Notes: generated from the sequence alone by a model not told the origin. A stretch of 17,037 bases of DNA from a virus (IMGVR_UViG_2700989544_000010); one strand, 5' to 3'; positions 398 through 16,802 are shown, counted from the stretch's first letter. Made by a program: numbers and translations.

Positions 398-925
398 ATG
401 AAATGTAAAATCATTGCTGCCATTGCCATGCTGACAGCAGCATCATGCGGATACGCAGCAGAACAGGAAGTCCCAATGAACCTTGTCAGTGCTGACGGAA
501 AAGAAGTCAGCATTGGAAAAATAACCATTCAGGAGACCCCCTACGGTCTGCTGTTCACACCAGCCCTTCACTCTCTGTCTGAAGGCATTCATGGTTTTCA
601 TGTGCACGAAAAAGGAAATTGCGCCCCGGCACTAAAAGACGGAAAACCGGTCGCAGCATTATCGGCTGGCGGTCACTTTGACCCGAAAAACACCGGCAAA
701 CATCTTGGCCCCTGGTCTCCGGATGGACACCTGGGCGACCTCCCTGCGCTGTTCGTGACGCATGACGGAAAAGCGAACTACCCGGTCCTGGCCCCGAGAC
801 TGAACTCATTAAAAGAGATTAAAGGGCGTTCTCTCATGCTTCATGCTGGCGGTGATAACCATCATGACCATCCGGAGCCCCTGGGCGGTGGTGGTGCGAG
901 AATGGCCTGCGGCATCATTCAATAA
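398..925 (+). CDS. sodC: Periplasmic Cu,Zn superoxide dismutase (phage-borne SodC)
   Basis: ATG at 398 is in frame with track ORF 101..925, with GAGGG about 5 nt upstream. N-terminus [20 protein letters not shown] looks like a signal peptide. Conserved Cu/Zn-SOD blocks are present: [39 protein letters not shown] and C-terminal [12 protein letters not shown]. The part of the track ORF upstream of 398 has no SOD similarity. Confidence 0.9.
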
Positions 926-1115: not shown

Positions 1116-1796
1116 TTATGCCTGCCGCCCGATAACCACCACCTTCCCGTCACCGCCTTCATCACGGGTACTGATGTCCTGGGATATACGGCGGGAGCCA
1201 ACCAGCATTTCCCCGTAAGGCACCGGCATCGGGTTCCCCTGGGCAATCATGTTATCCAGCGAGGAAAAGTACGTGTTCTGTCTGCCGTTATCCGTTGCGC
1301 GGTAATCCGGTACTTTAGCCTTCGGGGCAAGCATCTGAGCCACACCACCCAGTATCATGCTGGCTCCAAGTGAAAACAGCATCGTGGTGGCAGAAAAACC
1401 ACCGGCTGCCAGGGCTGAACCCCATAACGCCATTGATGCCCCGGCAGTGAAGAAAGAGCCCACGATGGCTGCCGCCCCCAGCACAATCTGCAGTCCACCC
1501 TTTCCGGCCCCGGCCAGTCGCGGCACAATGTGGATGACCGTTCCCTCACCCAGCTGTTCGTGAAGACGGGCGTACACCGCCTCCGGTGCCGTGTCCTCAC
1601 CGCGAATACGTATCTGGTACCAGCCTTCGTTCATCTGACGGCGGAATCCCGGCATCTGCATCGACAGGGCACGGATGGCTTCCGCTGCCGTGTTCACATA
1701 CAGGCTGAGGCGGCGGCCAAATCGTTGTAAATCCCCGTGAAGGCAGATACGTGCCAGTGGCGGTGACGCCAGGCTGAATGCGTTCGTCGTTGCCAT
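1116..1796 (-). CDS. I: Tail tip assembly protein I homolog
   Basis: Track ORF 1116..1796 (226 aa): MATTNAFSLASPPLARICLHGDLQRFGRR... with a hydrophobic Gly/Ala-rich centre and C-terminal NTYFSSLDNMIAQGN, matching remembered lambda gpI. Confidence 0.85.
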   Translation of the reverse strand: MATTNAFSLASPPLARICLHGDLQRFGRRLSLYVNTAAEAIRALSMQMPGFRRQMNEGWYQIRIRGEDTAPEAVYARLHEQLGEGTVIHIVPRLAGAGKGGLQIVLGAAAIVGSFFTAGASMALWGSALAAGGFSATTMLFSLGASMILGGVAQMLAPKAKVPDYRATDNGRQNTYFSSLDNMIAQGNPMPVPYGEMLVGSRRISQDISTRDEGGDGKVVVIGRQA

Positions 1797-2437
1797 TTTT
1801 CGGAATACCTCTCCCGTTTACTCAGTTGTTCAGGCAGATGGTGAAGCAGCTCACCGTTGCCGCAGTATATGGCGGCATGATTGGCCACCGATGCGCCAAA
1901 GCAGCACAGCAGGATATCGCCAGGCTGTGCGGAAGGCAGGGAAATCCTGTAAAAACCAGTCGCCGCCATATTGTCCAGGTAAAGGTTCTGACCGTTGCGC
2001 CACCAGTCATCCTCACGCACAAAATCCGGCAGCGTTATCCCCGCCAGATGGTATGCATCCCGGAACAGGGTGTAACAGTCCGTCACCCCGTGCTCAAAAC
2101 GACGCCCGGTCAGGTGCGGCACACAGCGGAATTTGTGAATTTCCCCCCGGCAGACCAGCCACCAGGGCAGGGCACTCTTTATCTGCAGCCGCCGGTCCGC
2201 CTCGCTCAGCCAGGGCAGACCACCAGGGTGGCTGTGAACCAGCGCCACAATCTCCCCCTGCATCTCTGCCTGCAGCCAGTCTTCCGGCGCAATACGAAAA
2301 TACGCCTCCGGCTCTGCAGAGATATTCACACAAGGGATATACCGTTCCCCCTCCGGCGTGCTTATCACGAAGCCGCACGACTCCGCAGGCGCACACCGCC
2401 GGGCATGCGCCAGAATCGCTGATTCAGTCTGTGTCAT
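1694..2437 (-). CDS. K: Tail tip assembly protein K homolog (JAB/MPN-like plus NlpC/P60-like domains)
   Basis: Internal ATG at 2437..2435 of track ORF 1694..2698 starts MTQTESAILAHARRC.... It contains a JAMM-like motif EIVALVHSHPGGLPWLSEAD and NlpC/P60-like Cys/His context (DCYTLFRDAYH ... NHAAIY). The 3' end overlaps I by about 100 nt in another frame, as I recall for lambda K/I. The track ORF residues upstream of MTQTES are judged non-coding extension. Confidence 0.85.
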   Translation of the reverse strand: MTQTESAILAHARRCAPAESCGFVISTPEGERYIPCVNISAEPEAYFRIAPEDWLQAEMQGEIVALVHSHPGGLPWLSEADRRLQIKSALPWWLVCRGEIHKFRCVPHLTGRRFEHGVTDCYTLFRDAYHLAGITLPDFVREDDWWRNGQNLYLDNMAATGFYRISLPSAQPGDILLCCFGASVANHAAIYCGNGELLHHLPEQLSKRERYSEKWQRRTHSAWRHRHWHVSAFTGIYNDLAAASACM

Positions 2438-2447
2438 AAAACAGGAT

Positions 2448-3147
2448 TTACTGCGAAAGTTTATTGATGGAAAGGAAACCGCCAAAATTGACCGCCATGC
2501 CGCGCATCTCACACCCGCGCATGCATTTACTGCATCTGTCCTTCCGGATATCCGTGGTGGGTTTATCGAACTCATCCGCCACAGCCCCGCCCGTGTAACC
2601 ACACTCATCAGAGCGGTAGGTCCACATACAGGTGTTCGCCAGCATGATACGACCGGGAAACAGCGCTCCGTCCGTCTCGGTCGGTGTGGCCAGCACAAAC
2701 GAGGCCGTCATGGCTGTCAGCTGCGACATCTGCTCCACCACCCAGCGGTCGCTCAGCTCCTGCTCCGGGTCCGCTTCCGGATTGCCCGCCACAAAATTCA
2801 CCGCATCCAGAAAACGGGCATACACCCGGCGGCGGACCACCGTGGCCCCCCACCAGGCTCTGCAGGTCCTCCGCCATCCCGGTGACCAGACCAAACAGAT
2901 TGGACACCGTCAGCGACGGTCTGGCACTGCTGCCCTTCCCGTTCATCTCAAAGCCACTGCCGTCAATCGGGTATGCCTGATATTGCCGCCCCTGCCAGGT
3001 GACCGCCTCCCCTTTTTCATTCAGCTCATTGCAGAAAAAATACCGCTCACCACCCTGTACCGTCAGGTCGATTTCCCAGAGTACCACCCGCGGTGACTGC
3101 TCTGATTTAACCGACTCGTTCAGACTTTCTTCGTGAATATCCTGCAT
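2448..3147 (-). pseudogene. L: Tail tip protein L homolog, disrupted by a frameshift near 2843..2852
   Basis: The N-terminal 101 codons (MQDIHEESLNE...MAEDLQSLVGG) are in the frame of track ORF 2608..3147. The remainder (ATVVRRRVYARFLDAVNFV...GGFLSINKLSQ) is in the frame of track ORF 2448..2894. The two halves together recapitulate lambda gpL. The switch occurs at a G6/C6 homopolymer (plus-strand CCCCCC at about 2846..2851). Confidence 0.8.
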
Positions 3148-10845: not shown

Positions 10846-11298
10846 TCATGGCATAGCCATGAGCATTTTCACGTCCGCATCACCGTCTGCTGACGTCTGT
10901 GGCACGCCACCCTGTACCGCTGCCGGTGAATGGTTCGCCATGATGCGTTCAAACAGGGCGGTTGTGGATGCAGAGACCGGTTCTGCCTTACCTGATCCCG
11001 CAGCCAGCACAGCCCGGGCGCTCTCCACAGTCATTCCCGGGCAGGCAGCCAGCTGTTCAGCCTGCGCCTCAGCCCCTTTTGCCTCATCCAGTGCCATGAT
11101 CTGATCACGGAGTGAGGGTCCGGCATCCGCCTGCGGTGAAGCAGCCAGGATCGGGCGGGCTTTTTCCACCGTCATCTCCGGCATCGCCGCCAGCGTTGCC
11201 GCCAGTTGTTCACGTCCTTTCGCTTCCTGGCATGTCAGGATCCCCATCACTCGCTGGTTCTCCTGCGCGGCGGCTTCCGTTGCAGTTAATTGCGGCAT
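10846..11298 (-). CDS. Nu3: Putative scaffold protein Nu3-like product from an in-frame internal start within C
   Basis: In-frame ATG at 11298..11296 (MPQLTATEAAAQENQRVMGILTCQEAKGREQ...) is preceded by a strong GAGGAGG Shine-Dalgarno 5-6 nt upstream. This mirrors the nested C/Nu3 arrangement of lambda. Confidence 0.55.
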   Translation of the reverse strand: MPQLTATEAAAQENQRVMGILTCQEAKGREQLAATLAAMPEMTVEKARPILAASPQADAGPSLRDQIMALDEAKGAEAQAEQLAACPGMTVESARAVLAAGSGKAEPVSASTTALFERIMANHSPAAVQGGVPQTSADGDADVKMLMAMP

Positions 11299-12201
11299 AG
11301 TGCCTCCTCTGACATTACTGTTCAGCGCCGTGGCCATCACACTGATGGCATCCGACGCATTGACTAATTCATCCGCCAGCCCGGCATCAATGCCGGACTG
11401 ACCTTCAAAAACGGCGGCCTCTGTTCCCGTGACGGCATCAACAGACAGACCGGTAAACATGGCCACTTTTTCGGCAAACATCCGGCGCGCCGCATCAATG
11501 CGCTGCTGCATGTCCTGGCGAACCTCTGCCGGTAAGGCTTCAAACTGATTGCCATCCACCTTGTGCGCCCCTGAGTAAATCAGCGTGATATCCACACCGG
11601 CCTGCGCCAGATGACCGGCATAGCTGACATGGCTCATCATCACGCCAATGGAGCCGATACGGGATGTCTGGGTAACCAGCCGTCGGGAGCAGGCCGACGC
11701 CAGCAGCATGGCTGCAGAACAGGCCGTGTCATTGCACAGTGCCCAGACCGGCTTCTGCTGACGGAGGCGGTAAATCATGTCAGCGCAGTCAAACGCGCCG
11801 GCGGCCTGCCCGCCCGGACTGTCAATGTCCAGCAGTACGCCCCGCACCTGGCTATCCGCCATTGCCTGCTGAAGACAGGCGACAATGCCGTCATAGCCTG
11901 TCATTCCGGAAAATGGCCGCATACCCCCCAGCCGGTACACCAGCGTGCCGGTCACCGGCAGTACAGCAATACCGTTCACCACCCGGTAAACACGGGCCGG
12001 TCGTTTACCTCCGGCCATGTACTCGTCCGTTTCAGCCAGCATTCCGGGAGCATCAAGCTGTACCTGCTGCTGTGGTACCGAAAGACTTGCTGCCCCCATC
12101 TCGCGCCCGAGCGCGCAAAAGAAAACCCGCGCATAGGCGGGCTCCAGAAGCAGCGGTTCATTGAATGCTGCGGCAATAATGTGTGAAAGATTACGTCTCA
12201 C
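10846..12201 (-). CDS. C: Head maturation protease / scaffold protein C homolog (S49/ClpP-like)
   Basis: Track ORF 10846..12201 (451 aa): MRRNLSHIIAAAFNEPLLLEPAYARVFFCALG...GVLLDIDSPGG...VWALCNDTACSAAMLLASACSRRLVTQTSRIGSIGVMM..., collinear with lambda gpC. Confidence 0.9.
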   Translation of the reverse strand: MRRNLSHIIAAAFNEPLLLEPAYARVFFCALGREMGAASLSVPQQQVQLDAPGMLAETDEYMAGGKRPARVYRVVNGIAVLPVTGTLVYRLGGMRPFSGMTGYDGIVACLQQAMADSQVRGVLLDIDSPGGQAAGAFDCADMIYRLRQQKPVWALCNDTACSAAMLLASACSRRLVTQTSRIGSIGVMMSHVSYAGHLAQAGVDITLIYSGAHKVDGNQFEALPAEVRQDMQQRIDAARRMFAEKVAMFTGLSVDAVTGTEAAVFEGQSGIDAGLADELVNASDAISVMATALNSNVRGGTMPQLTATEAAAQENQRVMGILTCQEAKGREQLAATLAAMPEMTVEKARPILAASPQADAGPSLRDQIMALDEAKGAEAQAEQLAACPGMTVESARAVLAAGSGKAEPVSASTTALFERIMANHSPAAVQGGVPQTSADGDADVKMLMAMP

Positions 12202-13783
12202 GGGGTGTTGTCTCCTCTTCCGGCCTGCGACTCTCCGCTATCTGCTGCTGATACGCCTGCGCTATCCACACCGGACGTGAGAGTCCGGCTTTTTGCCGCT
12301 CTGCAGATTCCCTGACCTGCTGGCGGAAAATGTCCTGATAATCCTCGCCCATCAGCGCCAGCTCTTTCTCATACGTGCTCAGTCCGGCCTCAATGCGCAT
12401 CACCGATTCCTGAACCTCCTTGAGCCCGTCAATGGCCATTCTTCCGGCACCAATCCACTCTGCCCGTGACCAGGCTGATCGCGCCTGATAAAAATCAAAA
12501 CGCGCCCGTGGCGGACGGATAATCCCCCGAAGAAGTGCCTCTTCCAGCCAGCAGGAAAACATCTGCGTGGCCAGCCGGGCCGCAATAAATTTTCGCCGCC
12601 CCATAAAATAGCGCCACGACTCATTGGCAGAGGCCCTGGCACTTGAATAACTGACCTTCGAGTAATCACGGGACAACTGTTCGTAGGAAACGCCAAGACC
12701 GGCGGCGATATACCGCAGCAGCGCCTGTTCAAGCGCCGAAAATCCATTGTCTGAATCCTGCGCAGTCTGTAGTTTCAGATCATCCCCGGGGAAAAGGTGC
12801 GGAATTTTGACACCACCCAGCGTCACGTTATTCGTGTCATACCAGCTGGAGAACTTCTCCAGAATATTAATAAGCGGATTATCCTTCTGCCCCTGCGGCG
12901 CACCGGCGATATATTCAAAGGCCTTTTCGGTATCAAGGTCACTTTCAATCGTCGCTGCATACATGGCTTTCACAATGGCCGACTGAAGCTGTGTTGCCTG
13001 CAGGGAATCGAGCATCTTCAGCCGTTCCATGACGCTGTAAAACTGGTTGGCCCCACGGGTCTGCCCGTCCTCCACCGGCTCGAAAATATGCAGCATGGCC
13101 GGACGCCCGGTGGGAAGTTCACGCGGGATCCGTTCCCATCGTCCACTCCCGAAGCGAGGAAAATCATCCTCACAGATATGGTACGCAACGGCACGGCCAT
13201 ATCGATCGACCTCCACCCCGGCCCGCAGAAAACGGTTCCCCATACCGTGTCCTGGCGTGTCCACCCGTTTCGGACTCACGGCTTTAAAACGCGTACGGAA
13301 TAACTGCGTGGTTTCCGTATCCCAGACCGGCTGCACAAAGATTTCGCCGTTAAACGCATGAACGCCCACACCTTCACGGATAAATTCCGTGAACGTGCGT
13401 TTTCCTTCCACGTCGATCTCGCCAGACATCCCTTCGGCGTATTCCGACCAGGCCGCCTCCACCTCATCGACAAAGCTTTTTGCTGCGGTCTCCCGCATCC
13501 CCAGCCAGCGCCAGTTCGGACGGTAGCTGATAAGAAACATATGCCCGACAATGTGATCCTTATGCAGTGCCACCGCATTGGCCGCTATTCCGTTATTGCG
13601 CACCAGATCATCTGCCCGGGCATTCCCCAGACGCAACGCGGGCAGCAGGGCCGCATCGGCACTCTGCGCCGGTGGCAACCACTCCGCCATTTGCCCGCCA
13701 AATCCTGCACCGCCCCCGTTGTAGCTGAGACTCTCACGAAGCGGAACGCCGTTCACATCAATCAGGACAGGCGTTCGTTTCAT
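12191..13783 (-). CDS. B: Portal protein B homolog
   Basis: Track ORF 12191..13783 (530 aa): MKRTPVLIDVNGVPLRESLSYNGGGAGFGGQ...EPVEDGQTRGANQFYSVMERLKMLD...SALEQALLRYIAAGLGVSYEQLSRDY..., collinear with lambda gpB. Confidence 0.9.
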   Translation of the reverse strand: MKRTPVLIDVNGVPLRESLSYNGGGAGFGGQMAEWLPPAQSADAALLPALRLGNARADDLVRNNGIAANAVALHKDHIVGHMFLISYRPNWRWLGMRETAAKSFVDEVEAAWSEYAEGMSGEIDVEGKRTFTEFIREGVGVHAFNGEIFVQPVWDTETTQLFRTRFKAVSPKRVDTPGHGMGNRFLRAGVEVDRYGRAVAYHICEDDFPRFGSGRWERIPRELPTGRPAMLHIFEPVEDGQTRGANQFYSVMERLKMLDSLQATQLQSAIVKAMYAATIESDLDTEKAFEYIAGAPQGQKDNPLINILEKFSSWYDTNNVTLGGVKIPHLFPGDDLKLQTAQDSDNGFSALEQALLRYIAAGLGVSYEQLSRDYSKVSYSSARASANESWRYFMGRRKFIAARLATQMFSCWLEEALLRGIIRPPRARFDFYQARSAWSRAEWIGAGRMAIDGLKEVQESVMRIEAGLSTYEKELALMGEDYQDIFRQQVRESAERQKAGLSRPVWIAQAYQQQIAESRRPEEETTPRET

Positions 13784-13986
13784 AACCTCACTCCCAGCGG
13801 ACGACGGCGACGCCGGGTTGTCCCCAGTACCGACTCCGCATCATTGATCGCCCGGTTAAGCTCATCCAGAGAAGCCGCCGTATATTCAATTCTGCGACCA
13901 TCTTTCTGGACAGACACCACCCGTTTACCGGTTAATAAATCAAGGCGCGCCTGACGCAGCGCCTGCAGTTCAGCGACTGTAACCAT
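13780..13986 (-). CDS. W: Head-tail joining protein W homolog
   Basis: Track ORF 13780..13986 (68 aa): MVTVAELQALRQARLDLLTGKRVVSVQKDGRRIEYTAASLDEL..., same length and motif (TGKRV..VQKDGRR) as lambda gpW. Its start overlaps the 3' end of A. Confidence 0.85.
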   Translation of the reverse strand: MVTVAELQALRQARLDLLTGKRVVSVQKDGRRIEYTAASLDELNRAINDAESVLGTTRRRRRPLGVRL

Positions 13987-15898
13987 TCACTCCTCCGGAC
14001 AGCTTCGCTGCCAGTTCTTTCAGGGTTGGCCGGGTCGTCTCTTCTTCCCGGGATTTTGCCAGTACAGCCAGATCAAGCTGCCAGCGTTGCACGGACACAC
14101 GTAATGCCGCGTAGGCATACACCAGGCAGTCCAGCGCTTCGTTACGCCGCTTTTTGTTATCCCACAGCAGACGCATCTTTCCTTTTTCCCACTTCTCCAC
14201 CAGCTCTTCCGCCACCAGTTGCTGCGCCTCTGTCTGCGAAAAAATCTCCGGATCATCAGGAAAACGGATGGCATACGACGTGGCTTCATCCGCAGGCGAG
14301 GGATCGGCTTTCATACGGGCATAGAGAATTTCTTTTGCGGTGTCCGTTCCCACTTCACACAGATACACGCCCCGCTGATTGCGGGTTTTTGGCATGGTGA
14401 TCACCGGCTTGCCATAGACAGATGCGCCTTTTACCGGCAGCCCCCGGAAAACACCGTGTTTTTTTGATCTCTGATAAACAATTTCACCATCGATCCCCCC
14501 GGTGTCCCAGCAGACACGGGAAATAGTCATTTCGGTGCCATCCGCATGGCGGTATTTTTTGTTGATCGCCGCATCCACACGTAACAGCGTCTCTTCCTCA
14601 TCAGGACGCCCCATAATGATGATTTTATCCACCAGAAAGGCTTCCTCTCCCGGAGCCCATCCCCAGACATACATCTCAAAACGGTTTCGCTGCGAGTCAA
14701 TGCCCGCCGTCAGATAAACCACCCGGGCAGGCACCGCCGCCGTGTAACGCACCACCTTATCCATCAGTACCTAGTGATCGAGTTTTTCGCCCACGGCCTC
14801 TTCCCAGGTCTCGCCCAGCGTGGTGTTCACAAAGGTTTTCAGGCCGTTGGGATCTTTCAGTGCATCCAGCCAGTCATAGACAATCTGTACCCAGGTGGTG
14901 AACGGACTGTACGCCGTCCAGATATGGAACGTGATGGAGCGCGGCGGCGGAATTTCATCACCCCGGGCGCTGAAAAACGTCAGACCGTCACGGGTCCACA
15001 TGCCCGTGTTTTCACAGATCCACCGCCCGTTGCTCTGGTCCAGTTCAGACTGATGGATCACGCAGCCATGATGTTCACAGAGGTAGAAAACACTTTCAGG
15101 GCTGTCCTTCTCCCATTTAAGCCCAAAAGGCGTGGACTCATCGCCAAATTTCAGATACTGCTCCTCCCCACAGTGCGGGCAGGGCACATAAAAACGCATA
15201 AAATGCGCCGACTCGTTAGCGGCTTTTTCGATCTGGCAGGTGCCTTTGATTTTAGGCGTCGAGCCGCGAATGGATTTTGGCCACACCGACCCCTCAATAC
15301 GCTTATCCCCCAGCAGGGTTGGCGAGCCCTCTTTTTCGACATCCGGCTCGAACGAGGAAAGTTCGTCATAGCAGACCACGTCCACGGATTTTTCACGGTA
15401 GTTTTTGGCGGCAGCGCCGCCCAGGCACCAGAAACCGACGCCCGATGAAAAGCGTTTCAGCGTGAGAGTATTGTCACGATGTTTACGACCCAGCCATGGG
15501 GAAAGGTCTTTCAGGCATGGCACGTTCCGAATCGTCGCCTCCACGTGAGACTTCATAAAATCTTCAGCGGCAGAATCCGTGGGCTGAAAAAGCAGACTGT
15601 TTCGGGATTTATGCTCAATAAAATACCCGACCACCCCCAGCAACATCTTTGTATAGCCAACACGGGCAGATTTAATCAGATTAACAGTGCGGATCTGATC
15701 ATTCCCCATGCTGTTCATGATGGCGATCTGGAATGGCAGCGTTTTCCATTCGCCCTCACCATATGAAGATTCTTTAGGCAGATAATAATTTTGATCAGCC
15801 CATTCAACTGGCGTCACCGGCAATGCCCTTATCAGGGGCTGTAATGCAGTTGTGACAGCGCTCATCATATTATTCAGTTGTTGCTCTGATATATTCAT
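13970..15898 (-). pseudogene. A: Terminase large subunit A homolog, interrupted by an in-frame TAG codon at 14773..14771
   Basis: The N-terminal part is in track ORF 14771..15955 from internal ATG 15898 (MNISEQQLNN..., Walker-A-like KSARVGYTK) and ends ...TTLGETWEEAVGEKLDH-TAG. The same frame continues VLMDKVVRYTAAVPARVVYLTAGIDSQ... as track ORF 13970..14764. The combined length matches lambda gpA, and the TAG replaces a sense codon (Glu in lambda as I recall). Confidence 0.85.
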
Positions 15899-16376
15899 CA
15901 AGTAAATCCGGTAATTTATCCCCTGCCCGCGCACACTGATTTGCCCCCTTAGCAATAAGGGTTTTCAGATGGTCAAGATGGCGCGGTGTTAAATCAGGAA
16001 ACTGTCGCTGCATGGATAAAGGGATGGAATCAAGCGTACTGGATAACGCCATTGCCAGCTTACTGAGGGCAAAAATACAGAATCCGGTGTCAATAAGCTT
16101 ACCTTCGGTTACCTGATTTTTAAGTTTTTGAGCTACGGCCTGTTCTTCTGTCAGTTCAGCTCTGGCCCGAAGCAGCCTTTCCTCCAGATCGCCCTCGTCA
16201 TCAGGTATTCTCTGATTGTGTTGTCGCCGCTCGCGATCTATCTCCAGTACAGTTTTAACGTCATAAAAAACTTCCCTCCCACGACGCTCAACAGGAGGAA
16301 CGCCCCATTTATCAAATGCCTGAACAGATATACCGATGGAGGAGGCCATATCACTTTTATTCAATAAAAAGGCCAT
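15870..16376 (-). CDS. Nu1: Terminase small subunit Nu1-like (C-terminal half lambda-like, N-terminal DNA-binding part divergent)
   Basis: Track ORF 15870..16481. The likely start is the internal ATG at 16376..16374 (MAFLLNKSDMASSIGISVQAFDKWG...), preceded by GGAGAGGAG. The C-terminal FCIFALSKLAMALSSTLDSIPLSMQRQFPDLTPRHLDHLK...LPDLLDEYI matches lambda gpNu1. The 3' end overlaps A by about 29 nt. Confidence 0.8.
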   Translation of the reverse strand: MAFLLNKSDMASSIGISVQAFDKWGVPPVERRGREVFYDVKTVLEIDRERRQHNQRIPDDEGDLEERLLRARAELTEEQAVAQKLKNQVTEGKLIDTGFCIFALSKLAMALSSTLDSIPLSMQRQFPDLTPRHLDHLKTLIAKGANQCARAGDKLPDLLDEYIRATTE

Positions 16377-16591
16377 CTCCTCTCCATAAGCCATCGATAA
16401 AAAGCGATACAACAACCATGTGTTTTTACAAAACCATTTGATATCATTGACATTTTTCGCATTGACGACATCAAAACACATCGTAAGGTTGTTGTATTTA
16501 TTTTATTTTCACCTTACTTATCAATTAGATATGCCAAACAATTAAACAACAACTCCCCCTCAAAAAATCTCATAAATAGCGAAAACCCGCG
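16377..16591 (-). promoter_or_regulatory. Candidate cosB region (terminase small-subunit binding sites), not lambda-like in sequence
   Basis: AT-rich spacer between cosN and the Nu1 start, the same position and similar length as lambda cosB. It diverges from lambda after the first about 22 nt inside cosN and contains ACAACAAC motifs in both orientations (about 16488..16496 and 16547..16554). Confidence 0.4.
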
Positions 16592-16603
16592 AGGTCGCCG
16601 CCC
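16592..16603 (-). other. cosN cohesive-end site (12-nt GGGCGGCGACCT on minus strand)
   Basis: Plus-strand AGGTCGCCGCCC at 16592..16603 is the reverse complement of the lambda cohesive end. Identity with lambda extends on the Nu1 side (CGCGGGTTTTCGCTATTTATGA) and on the other side (CGTAACCTGTCGGATCGCCGGAAAGGACCCGC, matching the lambda right end). Confidence 0.8.
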
Positions 16604-16665
16604 CGTAACCTGTCGGATCGCCGGAAAGGACCCGCAAAATGATAATAATTATCATCTACATATCA
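16604..16665 (-). promoter_or_regulatory. cosQ-like region / phage genome right end
   Basis: Minus-strand ...CGTTGTGATATGTAGATGATAATTATTATCATTTTGCGGGTCCTTTCCGGCGATCCGACAGGTTACG matches the remembered last about 60 nt of the lambda genome (cosQ) with a few substitutions. Confidence 0.6.
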
Positions 16666-16802
16666 CAACGTGCATCTACGCCATCAAACCACGTCAAATA
16701 ATCAATTATGACGCAGGTATCGTATTAATTGATCTGCGTCAAATTAACGTAAAAGCAACTTCAGATAATACAAATCAGCAACACTGAATATGGGGAAACA
16801 TT

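What the first reader, a model, noticed from the sequence alone, without database searches (positions are those of the whole stretch)
14762..14779. In-frame amber codon splits terminase large subunit gene A
The A frame is continuous from 15898 to 13970 except for one TAG at 14773..14771 (...GETWEEAVGEKLDH * VLMDKVVRYTAAVPARVVYLTAGIDSQ...). Flanking residues align without a gap to lambda gpA, so this looks like a point substitution, not a rearrangement. An in-frame ATG lies three codons downstream, so a C-terminal fragment could in principle be made separately from the N-terminal Walker-A-containing part. Without a suppressor the prophage cannot package DNA even though cos is intact.
Basis: partly seen in the sequence, partly recalled or inferred. 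Interest (0 to 1): 0.6.

Follow-up and report, generated by a model that had tools for sequence, protein, structure and literature searches.

The report
Amber-stop pseudogene of prophage terminase
A single C-to-T change at a well-known E. coli mutation hotspot has put a stop codon in the middle of the DNA-packaging enzyme gene of an already damaged lambda-like prophage; this is ordinary prophage decay, not a new mechanism.

Summary
Gene A (terminase large subunit, 15898..13970, minus strand) is a 642-codon frame interrupted only by TAG at 14773..14771 (codon 376). The nearest intact alleles and phage 21 have CAG (Gln) there; the gene differs from those alleles at only one other base.

It is not a sequencing error. 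The window is contig LKDA01000069.1, and the exact 375-aa and 264-aa fragments are called on 55 and 67 public E. coli contigs.

The wild-type context is CAC-CAG-GTA, which contains the Dcm site CCAGG. The mutated base is the methylated inner C (CCAGG to CTAGG), the classic 5-methylcytosine deamination route to amber codons. The same TAG also sits on a second haplotype, in O111:NM 2010C-3053, where NCBI's annotation pipeline (PGAP) marks the gene a pseudogene with an "internal stop".

The stop separates the ATPase part (K76, D178/E179) from all three invariant nuclease aspartates (D401, D465, D590). Diverse homologues are not naturally split here (101 of 108 continue). The downstream ATG has only an average ribosome-binding signal, and no suppressor tRNA is present.

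The prophage has other lesions: a gpL frameshift, a 150-nt deletion in gene C, and an IS insertion upstream of cos.

Verdict: real, inherited, ordinary pseudogene. Interest is low.

The parts
13970..15898 (-). Gene A, lambda/phage 21-type terminase large subunit. It has 642 codons and is now a pseudogene with one internal amber codon.
   Evidence: Translation. 99.7% aa identity to the intact E. coli allele, 91.7% to phage 21 gp2 and 66.2% to lambda gpA. Pfam GpA_ATPase covers 48-293 and GpA_nuclease 323-601 in the intact allele. PGAP annotates the homologous gene as 'phage terminase large subunit family protein'.
14771..14773 (-). Amber codon TAG at codon 376. It is CAG (Gln) in the relatives.
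   Evidence: CAG is present in L001, L002, L025 and phage 21.
14770..14774 (-). CTAGG, the mutated form of a Dcm methylation site (CCAGG in intact alleles). The changed base is the inner, methylated C.
   Evidence: One search gives the sequence context and a list of the 5 CCWGG sites in the gene. The hotspot mechanism is described in PMC12606429, reviewing Coulondre et al. 1978.
14771..15898 (-). N-terminal ORF of 375 aa plus the stop. It holds the ATPase part: Walker A K76, D178/E179 and the Cys cluster C240/C243/C274.
   Evidence: The exact product is called on 55 public contigs.
13970..14764 (-). C-terminal ORF of 264 aa starting at ATG 14764 (M379). It holds the nuclease part with invariant D401, D465 and D590 and the C-terminal tail. 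Whether it is translated is unknown.
   Evidence: The exact product is called on 67 public contigs. The Shine-Dalgarno pairing is weak, -3.7 kcal/mol.
15870..16349 (-). Terminase small subunit gene (Nu1-like), intact. Its end overlaps the start of A.
   Evidence: 100% aa identity over 159 aa to the PGAP-annotated small subunit of OkiPb01713. Pfam Phage_Nu1 hits the called gene.
16592..16603 (-). cosN cohesive-end sequence GGGCGGCGACCT. It matches lambda and phage 21 exactly, and the flanks are lambda-like.
16919..17037 (.). End of an IS3-family element (IS1203/IS629-like). It truncates a ylcI/ynfO-like gene, lies between the lysis genes and cos/Nu1, and the contig ends inside it.
   Evidence: 119 nt are 100% identical to the IS1203 copy annotated in L003. 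The ylcI match stops at residue 39 of 61. Both IS ORFs are seen at this place in the 4.4-Mb contig of a sister assembly (L004).
2448..3147 (-). Tail gene L, broken by a +1 frameshift at the G/C run near 2846-2851.
   Evidence: Two ORFs in different frames. tblastn splits into two pieces. There is one extra base at 2846 relative to OkiPb01713. The same truncated product occurs in GCA_003015285.1 and CP027597.1.
10846..12201 (-). Gene C (S49 protease/scaffold) with an in-frame 150-nt deletion (451 vs 501 aa). The junction is at about 11207-11214, in the 8-nt microhomology TGTTCACG.
   Evidence: Every other assembly of the lineage that was read has the 501-aa form.

Best explanation
This is a true, heritable nonsense mutation that turns the terminase large subunit gene of a lambda/phage 21-like E. 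coli prophage into a pseudogene. Shown: one C->T transition on the coding strand changes Gln376 (CAG) to amber (TAG). The allele is fixed in a set of near-identical E. coli isolates. The stop lies after the ATPase catalytic residues and before all three invariant nuclease aspartates. Inferred origin: the changed base is the inner cytosine of a Dcm site (CCAGG -> CTAGG). Spontaneous deamination of 5-methylcytosine to thymine, which escaped very-short-patch repair, is therefore the likely cause. This also explains why the same TAG appears on a second, independent haplotype. Inferred consequence: the ribosome releases a 375-aa fragment that has the ATPase and Nu1-binding parts but no nuclease, no C-terminal DNA-binding region and no portal-binding region. 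The prophage's own terminase therefore cannot nick cosN or package DNA. Low-level restart at ATG 14764, 6 nt downstream, may produce a free nuclease fragment, but two unlinked halves are not expected to form a working motor. The mutation is one of several lesions in a decaying prophage. Any packaging of this element would depend on a compatible terminase and tail proteins from co-resident lambdoid prophages.
For: TAG position and continuous frame. The closest intact alleles differ by the TAG base plus one other base. Functional phage 21 has Q at this residue. Only 1 of 5426 complete E. coli genomes carries the TAG 81-mer; 1678 genomes match this 81-mer, the rest not exactly, and the ones shown differ by one base. 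In that one genome PGAP marks the gene as a pseudogene, 'internal stop'. The window is contig LKDA01000069.1, and sister assemblies are 100% identical over 17037..11207, including the TAG and the IS junction. The exact fragments occur on 55 and 67 contigs. CCAGG context: of 59 possible G:C->A:T nonsense transitions in the gene only 3 lie at Dcm inner cytosines, and this is one of them. Two haplotype backgrounds: O111:NM 2010C-3053 differs from O111 RM9322 only at this base but from the window allele at 7 bases. Dcm amber hotspots are established: PMC12606429. Domain split: Pfam coordinates and invariant K76, D401, D465, D590 in a 51-sequence alignment. No natural split. No suppressor tRNA in the window or in the O111:NM prophage region. 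Other lesions.
Against: No experiment or read pile-up was available. Loss of function is inferred from which residues are lost, not measured. Dcm activity in the source strain was not checked. The other two Dcm-derived amber possibilities in the gene (W335*, W364*) were not found in 1873 complete genomes, so the hotspot claim rests on two occurrences at one site. A gene-conversion tract shorter than 369 bp could also have moved the TAG between haplotypes. Pfam's nuclease model starts at residue 323, so by Pfam's boundaries the stop lies inside a domain model rather than in a clean linker. All other head genes apart from C, and all tail genes apart from L and K, are 99-100% identical in protein to those of an intact relative. 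The inactivation is therefore recent, and selection cannot be assessed.
Confidence: 0.88

Rival explanations
1. Sequencing or assembly error: the true base is C and the gene is intact.
For: The source is a draft short contig (17037 bp), and the change is a single base.
Against: The same base is found in many independent assemblies from different projects and in Logan assemblies of separate SRA runs. These are 100% identical to the window across 17037..11207 or the part they cover. The exact fragment proteins are on 55 and 67 contigs. The same TAG is in a finished O111:NM genome.
Confidence: 0.01
2. Functional two-piece terminase. Termination at TAG is followed by reinitiation at ATG 14764, and the free ATPase and nuclease halves assemble non-covalently into an active enzyme.
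For: The stop and the ATG are 6 nt apart. The stop falls in a poorly conserved stretch (residues 366-392, entropy 2.9 bits at 376, some indels). This stretch lies between the conserved KTFxNTxLGExWE motif and the first nuclease motif LTAGxDxQ, and may be an interdomain connector. Each half keeps its own catalytic residues. Both ORFs persist in the lineage.
Against: 101 of 108 diverse representatives that cover the N fragment continue for at least 200 more residues. The 3 that stop within 60 residues have scrambled C-termini typical of frameshifts. The TAG is confined to near-identical sequences. The Shine-Dalgarno pairing for the restart is only the median of internal in-frame starts. Pfam's nuclease model starts at 323, upstream of the break. 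In T4 gp17 the packaging mechanism depends on a covalent hinge that relays signals between the two domains (PMC3074133). From my own knowledge, not tested here: mixing separately made gp17 domains does not restore packaging.
Confidence: 0.04
3. The amber is read through or suppressed (host or phage suppressor tRNA, or a leaky context), giving enough full-length gpA. A glutamine-inserting suppressor (supE type) would restore the exact wild-type protein.
For: CAG->TAG is the change that a Gln-inserting amber suppressor reverses exactly (inference from the code). Terminase is needed in small amounts.
Against: There is no tRNA gene in the window. The tRNAs in the O111:NM prophage region have CAT, TCG and TCT anticodons, none of which reads UAG. 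The TAG is not conserved in any diverged homologue. Natural E. coli isolates normally lack amber suppressors (general knowledge). The rest of the source genome could not be examined.
Confidence: 0.03
4. Single origin: the TAG arose once and was moved between the two prophage haplotypes by a short gene conversion, rather than arising twice at a hotspot.
For: Lambdoid prophages in Shiga-toxin-producing E. coli (STEC) recombine often. The window shows mosaic patches in K and L. The nearest differences between the two TAG haplotypes flank a 369-bp identical tract (gene positions 894 and 1263).
Against: O111:NM 2010C-3053 differs from many other O111-type alleles by this one base only. A very short tract and co-residence of both prophages would be needed. 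A known hotspot gives a simpler account.
Confidence: 0.15

Closest known systems
Lambda gpA / phage 21 gp2 terminase large subunit (Pfam GpA_ATPase PF05876 + GpA_nuclease PF20454)
   Same: The gene order is the same (cos, Nu1, A, W, B, C, D, E...). Identity is 91.7% to phage 21 gp2 and 66.2% to lambda gpA with an ungapped alignment around the stop. Both Pfam domains are present, the catalytic residues are conserved and cosN is identical.
   Different: The reading frame is broken by TAG at codon 376, so no full-length protein is encoded. cosB differs from both lambda and phage 21.
Amber hotspots at Dcm sites in lacI (Coulondre, Miller, Farabaugh & Gilbert 1978; reviewed in PMC12606429)
   Same: It is a G:C->A:T transition at the second C of CCAGG that creates an amber codon from CAG, and it is seen recurrently.
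   Different: Here the mutation is seen in natural isolates in a prophage gene, not in a selected laboratory collection. Methylation at this site and the mutation rate were not measured.
Defective lambdoid prophages of enterohaemorrhagic E. coli (O157 Sakai prophage pool, PMC2669165)
   Same: Both are lambda-like prophages with a few inactivating lesions (IS insertions, frameshifts) in packaging or morphogenesis genes, next to otherwise intact modules. Sakai prophage Sp4 lacks an intact terminase yet is packaged, most likely in trans.
   Different: In Sp4 the lesion is an IS in nu1; here it is a nonsense codon in A. Whether the source strain holds a compatible helper prophage is unknown.
Laboratory lambda Aam mutants (amber alleles of gene A)
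   Same: Both have an amber codon in the same gene with an expected packaging-null phenotype that a suppressor host would relieve (my own knowledge, not tested here).
   Different: This is a natural allele in a different phage lineage, not lambda (66% aa identity), and it comes with further lesions.

Membership tests
Lambda-type terminase large subunit (gpA family) | N-terminal GpA_ATPase domain with Walker A lysine and Walker B Asp-Glu | tested here: met
   PF05876 matches residues 48-293 with E 2.9e-56 in the N fragment. K76 is invariant and D178/E179 are at least 90% conserved in 51 homologues.
Lambda-type terminase large subunit (gpA family) | C-terminal GpA_nuclease domain with conserved acidic residues | tested here: met
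   PF20454 matches 323-601 in the intact allele, and the C fragment matches profile positions 70-287 with E 2.4e-49. D401, D465 and D590 are invariant.
Lambda-type terminase large subunit (gpA family) | Both domains encoded in one uninterrupted reading frame | tested here: not met
   TAG at codon 376. 101 of 108 diverse homologues are fused. The gene is therefore filed as a pseudogene of this family.
Lambda-type terminase large subunit (gpA family) | Genomic context: cos site and small-subunit gene upstream, W and portal genes downstream | tested here: met
   cosN at 16592-16603, Nu1 at 16349..15870, W at 13986..13780 and the portal gene at 13783..12191.
Dcm (CCWGG) 5-methylcytosine deamination hotspot mutation | The ancestral sequence is CCWGG and the mutated base is the inner C (or its partner G) | tested here: met
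   Intact alleles read CACCAGGTA and the window reads CACTAGGTA.
Dcm (CCWGG) 5-methylcytosine deamination hotspot mutation | The change is a G:C->A:T transition | tested here: met
   C->T on the coding strand at 14773.
Dcm (CCWGG) 5-methylcytosine deamination hotspot mutation | Recurrence of the same change in independent lineages | tested here: inconclusive
   The TAG is present on two haplotypes, each with a CAG sibling that differs by 0-1 other base, but a short gene conversion is not excluded. The two other Dcm-derived amber sites of the gene were not hit in 1873 complete genomes.
Dcm (CCWGG) 5-methylcytosine deamination hotspot mutation | The host has active Dcm and the site is methylated | not testable with these tools
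   Only one contig of the source genome is available and there are no methylation data. Most E. coli carry dcm (general knowledge).
Naturally split (two-gene) large terminase | The split is conserved among diverged homologues, with its own start signal for the second gene | tested here: not met
   Searches show no such class among the 150 best 50%-identity representatives. The Shine-Dalgarno pairing of -3.7 kcal/mol equals the median of internal in-frame starts.
Programmed stop-codon suppression or readthrough | The stop codon is conserved in relatives, and/or a cognate suppressor tRNA is encoded nearby | tested here: not met
   The TAG is found only in near-identical sequences. No tRNA lies in the window and none of the tRNAs in L003 reads UAG.

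The most novel reading that the evidence does not exclude
The break falls in the connector between the ATPase and nuclease domains, with an ATG 6 nt downstream. This lineage may therefore make the two halves separately, and they may still work, either as a non-covalent terminase or as a free cos-nuclease or ATPase that interferes with or assists co-resident lambdoid phages. That would be a natural 'split terminase' experiment. A weaker version is that the Dcm site in this codon acts as a recurrent, built-in weak point that repeatedly immobilises phage 21-type prophages in E. coli.
Probability: 0.04. Interest if true: 0.5.

Novelty: already known. Interest (0 to 1): 0.12.

Why it matters
It matters little beyond correct annotation. 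The two ORFs at 15898..14771 and 14764..13970 should be annotated as one pseudogene (terminase large subunit, internal stop), not as two terminase genes. The prophage should be scored as defective for self-packaging. The case is a tidy natural example of the textbook Dcm amber hotspot, apparently hit twice in the same prophage codon. It could serve as a lineage marker for the isolates that share it. Because this prophage carries a cargo gene (sodC), its mobility would depend on helper prophages; co-resident prophages are known to package defective prophages in O157.

Tried and rejected
- An exact 34-mer containing the TAG was scanned against one genome per species (genome contigs) and gave 0 hits. 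This is uninformative, because the allele is strain-level.
- A paper search for the assembly and WGS accessions (LKDA, PVMF, LKDF, GCA numbers) gave 0 papers. The serotype and lineage of the source remain unidentified.
- A search for the IS/ylcI junction in complete E. coli genomes found no contiguous match. The window's lineage is therefore not in that collection. NZ_CP027597.1 is not held, so I could not check whether that finished genome, which shares the gpL frameshift, also has the TAG.
- PDB searches with the intact protein (phmmer) and with a 51-sequence profile found no homologous structure, only a weak zinc-ribbon resemblance at residues 235-281. The position of residue 376 relative to a solved domain boundary could not be set.
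- I ran no further search on this, because the verdict does not depend on it.
- A test for amber alleles at the two other Dcm-derived sites (W335*, W364*) found none in 1873 genomes. The test has low power and is neither for nor against.
- A tandem-repeat explanation for the 150-nt gene C deletion was rejected: TRF found nothing and the repeat finder only an unrelated 15-nt pair. The junction is an 8-nt microhomology.
- PMC2082050 (Ortega et al. 2007, on the gpA maturation domain) is not held.
- My first comparison with L003 used a slice that was 2 nt out of register (first part). It was redone correctly.

Full report
**1. The observation**

On the minus strand the window reads ...GAA AAA CTC GAT CAC TAG GTA CTG ATG GAT AAG... 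The TAG is at 14773..14771 and an in-frame ATG is at 14764..14762, the third codon after the stop. Translating 15898..13970 gives a 642-codon frame with one internal stop, at codon 376. The mechanical ORF list shows the two pieces, 14771..15955 and 13970..14764.

**2. What the gene is**

The product aligns end to end, with no gap near the stop, to three references: phage 21 gp2 (91.7% identity), lambda gpA (66.2%) and intact E. coli prophage alleles (99.7%).

Pfam places GpA_ATPase at residues 48-293 and GpA_nuclease at 323-601 of the intact allele. The N fragment keeps the whole ATPase model and the first ~55 positions of the nuclease model. The C fragment matches nuclease profile positions 70-287.

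The neighbourhood is a complete lambda-type late region on the minus strand:
- cosN, then the small subunit gene, A, W and the portal gene;
- the S49 protease/scaffold gene, the decoration and major capsid genes, FI and FII;
- Z, U, V, G, T, the tape measure gene, M, L, K and I;
- a sodC cargo gene and the start of J.

cosN (GGGCGGCGACCT) is exact at 16592-16603, with lambda-like flanks. cosB differs from both lambda and phage 21.

**3. The change is a single base and it is real**

The two closest complete-genome alleles are E. coli 2003-3014 and OkiPb01713. Each differs from the window's gene at two bases, one of which is C (CAG, Gln) where the window has T. Over 11226..16921 the window differs from OkiPb01713 at only three positions: 14773, 15633 and 16594. 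Phage 21, a working phage, also has Gln at this residue.

The window turns out to be a whole draft contig, LKDA01000069.1 of GCA_001440575.1. The exact 375-aa and 264-aa products are called in many other public assemblies, both NCBI drafts and Logan assemblies of SRA runs. They lie on 55 and 67 contigs respectively. The sister contigs I read are 100% identical, or differ by 1-6 bases, across 17037..11207 or the part they cover. That stretch includes the TAG and the IS junction. A sequencing error is excluded: the allele is inherited in a group of closely related isolates.

Among 5426 complete E. coli genomes, 1678 match the 81-mer around the site. Only one matches it exactly (with TAG); the others shown differ by one base. 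That genome is O111:NM 2010C-3053, where PGAP already marks the gene as a pseudogene with an 'internal stop'.

**4. How it most likely arose**

In the intact alleles the sequence is CAC-CAG-GTA, which contains CCAGG, a Dcm methylation site. The mutated base is its inner, methylated cytosine, giving CTAGG. This is the classic route to amber codons in E. coli: 5-methylcytosine deaminates to thymine, which uracil glycosylase cannot recognise. Coulondre et al. (1978) found that the dominant lacI amber hotspots are exactly G:C->A:T at the second C of CCAGG (reviewed in PMC12606429).

Of the 59 G:C->A:T transitions that could create a stop in this gene, only three lie at Dcm inner cytosines, and this is one of them.

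The TAG also sits on two different haplotypes. The window allele differs from the O111:NM allele at 7 bases. The O111:NM allele differs from that of O111 RM9322 at this base alone; many other genomes give the same one-mismatch bit score. Two independent hits at a hotspot is the simplest account. A gene-conversion tract shorter than 369 bp is the alternative.

A search for amber alleles at the other two Dcm-derived sites found none in 1873 complete genomes. That test has little power. The Dcm origin is therefore an inference that fits the context well; it is not a demonstrated fact.

**5. What it does to the protein**

In an alignment of 51 diverse full-length homologues the invariant residues are Q57, K76 (Walker A), G191, C240, C243, C274, W336, D401, D465, G468 and D590. 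D178 and E179 are nearly invariant. The stop at 376 leaves the ATPase residues and the Cys cluster in the N fragment. It removes all three invariant aspartates of the nuclease, together with the whole C-terminal region.

From established work on lambda terminase (my own knowledge, not tested here), that C-terminal region also carries DNA-binding and prohead-binding functions. Without suppression, the prophage's own enzyme should therefore neither nick cosN nor dock and translocate DNA.

Residue 376 itself is variable (entropy 2.9 bits; the commonest residue is Glu, in 15 of 51 sequences). It lies in a variable stretch with some indels (366-392). This stretch sits between the conserved KTFxNTxLGExWE motif and the first nuclease motif LTAGxDxQ. 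That would fit an interdomain connector like the hinge of T4 gp17 (PMC3074133). However, Pfam's nuclease model begins upstream at 323, and no solved homologue could be found to settle the boundary.

**6. Is the split meaningful?**

I searched the N fragment against 1.84 billion 50%-identity representatives. Of the 108 hits among the best 150 that cover the query to its end, 101 continue for at least 200 more residues. Only three stop within 60 residues. Those three have C-termini that diverge from the family consensus in the way frameshifted pseudogenes do. There is no class of naturally split enzymes.

The ATG at 14764 is preceded by AGGU with a 4-nt spacer. Its predicted pairing to the anti-Shine-Dalgarno sequence is -3.7 kcal/mol, exactly the median of the 40 internal in-frame ATG/GTG/TTG codons of the gene and far weaker than most real starts in this operon.

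Restart after termination 6 nt upstream is mechanistically possible, so some free C fragment may be made. Nothing suggests that it was selected. In T4 gp17 the packaging mechanism relies on a covalent hinge between the two domains.

No tRNA gene lies in the window. The three tRNAs of the O111:NM prophage region have anticodons CAT, TCG and TCT.

**7. The prophage is otherwise damaged**

Relative to OkiPb01713 the window has three further lesions:
- an extra base at the G/C run near 2846 that frameshifts tail gene L. This lesion is shared with GCA_003015285.1 and with CP027597.1;
- an in-frame 150-nt deletion in gene C (451 vs 501 aa) at an 8-nt microhomology. Among the loci read it occurs only in this contig, which the index lists for two samples;
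- an IS1203/IS629-like element that truncates a ylcI-like gene about 320 bp upstream of cosN. The contig ends inside it.

All remaining head and tail proteins are 99-100% identical to those of the intact relative, apart from K at 96%. The decay is therefore recent. An amber suppressor alone would probably not give viable phage, because gpL is also broken.

Conversely, 'cannot package' is too strong for the element as a whole. In O157 Sakai, prophage Sp4 lacks an intact terminase yet is packaged, most likely by the terminase of a co-resident prophage with a near-identical cos (PMC2669165). E. coli genomes that carry this gene have a median of 2 and up to 5 copies.

**8. Comparison with what is known, and verdict**

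The gene is a member of the lambda gpA family in every tested respect except the uninterrupted frame, so it is a pseudogene of that family. The mutation has the defining sequence features of a Dcm hotspot amber. The element behaves like the defective lambdoid prophages long described in enterohaemorrhagic E. coli.

The same lesion is already annotated as an internal stop in a finished genome. The fragments are already deposited as 'phage terminase large subunit' proteins.

The finding is ordinary and is best handled as an annotation note. Interest is 0.12 and novelty is 'already known'. The only reading with some novelty is a working or interfering two-piece terminase, which I put at about 4%.

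Noticed in passing
window 2448-3147 (minus strand), frameshift near 2846-2851: Tail gene L is split into two frames by one extra base at a G/C run, within a short mosaic patch (several substitutions at 2787-2893). The same truncated 179-aa product is called in GCA_003015285.1 and in the finished genome CP027597.1, so the lesion is inherited and may predate the amber in A.
   Followed up: partly
window 10846-12201 (minus strand), junction about 11207-11214: There is an in-frame 150-nt (50-aa) deletion in the S49 protease/scaffold gene C relative to every other assembly read. It is bounded by the 8-nt microhomology TGTTCACG inside two imperfect 38-nt repeats. It occurs only in this contig, which the index lists for two samples. 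It could be a real deletion or an assembly collapse.
   Followed up: partly
window 16919-17037: The contig ends inside an IS3-family element (100% identical to an annotated IS1203 copy). The element is inserted in a ylcI/ynfO-like gene between the lysis genes and cos/Nu1. A sister 4.4-Mb contig shows the whole IS at this place. It may affect late-operon transcription into the head genes.
   Followed up: partly
window 16592-16603; L002 20743: cosN is identical to lambda in the window. The otherwise nearly identical OkiPb01713 prophage, whose gene A is intact, has a substitution inside the 12-nt cohesive end (GGGCGGCGAGCT). That relative may therefore have its own packaging problem.
   Followed up: no
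window 398-925 (plus strand): A sodC (Cu,Zn superoxide dismutase) cargo gene lies between tail genes I and J on the opposite strand. It is 100% identical in protein to the copy in OkiPb01713.
   Followed up: no
window 14442 (codon 486 of gene A): A Val->Gly change sits in the conserved HG(V/L)FRV(L/I)P motif (Val in lambda, phage 21 and most alleles). It is shared with the intact OkiPb01713 allele, so it is not a consequence of the pseudogene state.
   Followed up: no
window 1728-2291 (gene K): A dense patch of substitutions relative to OkiPb01713 (about 35 in 560 bp, protein 96% identical) lies inside an otherwise almost identical tail region. It is a recombination mosaic typical of lambdoid prophages.
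   Followed up: no
gpA residues 235-281 (window about 15196-15056, minus strand): The invariant Cys cluster (C240, C243, C274) gives a weak profile match to zinc ribbons of RNA polymerase subunits and TFIIS-like proteins in the PDB (E 0.002). This suggests a zinc-ribbon insert in the ATPase half of gpA-family terminases.
   Followed up: no
L014 (GCA_045749525.1, JBBUQA010000084.1): This contig holds two diverged copies of the W-to-tape-measure head and tail genes in inverted orientation, joined inside gene A. One arm begins at window 14950, upstream of the TAG, and the other at 14742. It is probably a chimeric assembly of two co-resident prophages, which hints that some isolates of this group carry a second related prophage.
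   Followed up: no
L010, L011, L012, L019 (Logan contigs): Several independent Logan contigs begin exactly at window 16599, inside cosN. This is probably an assembly-graph branch point caused by cos being shared among prophages, not a physical DNA end.
   Followed up: no
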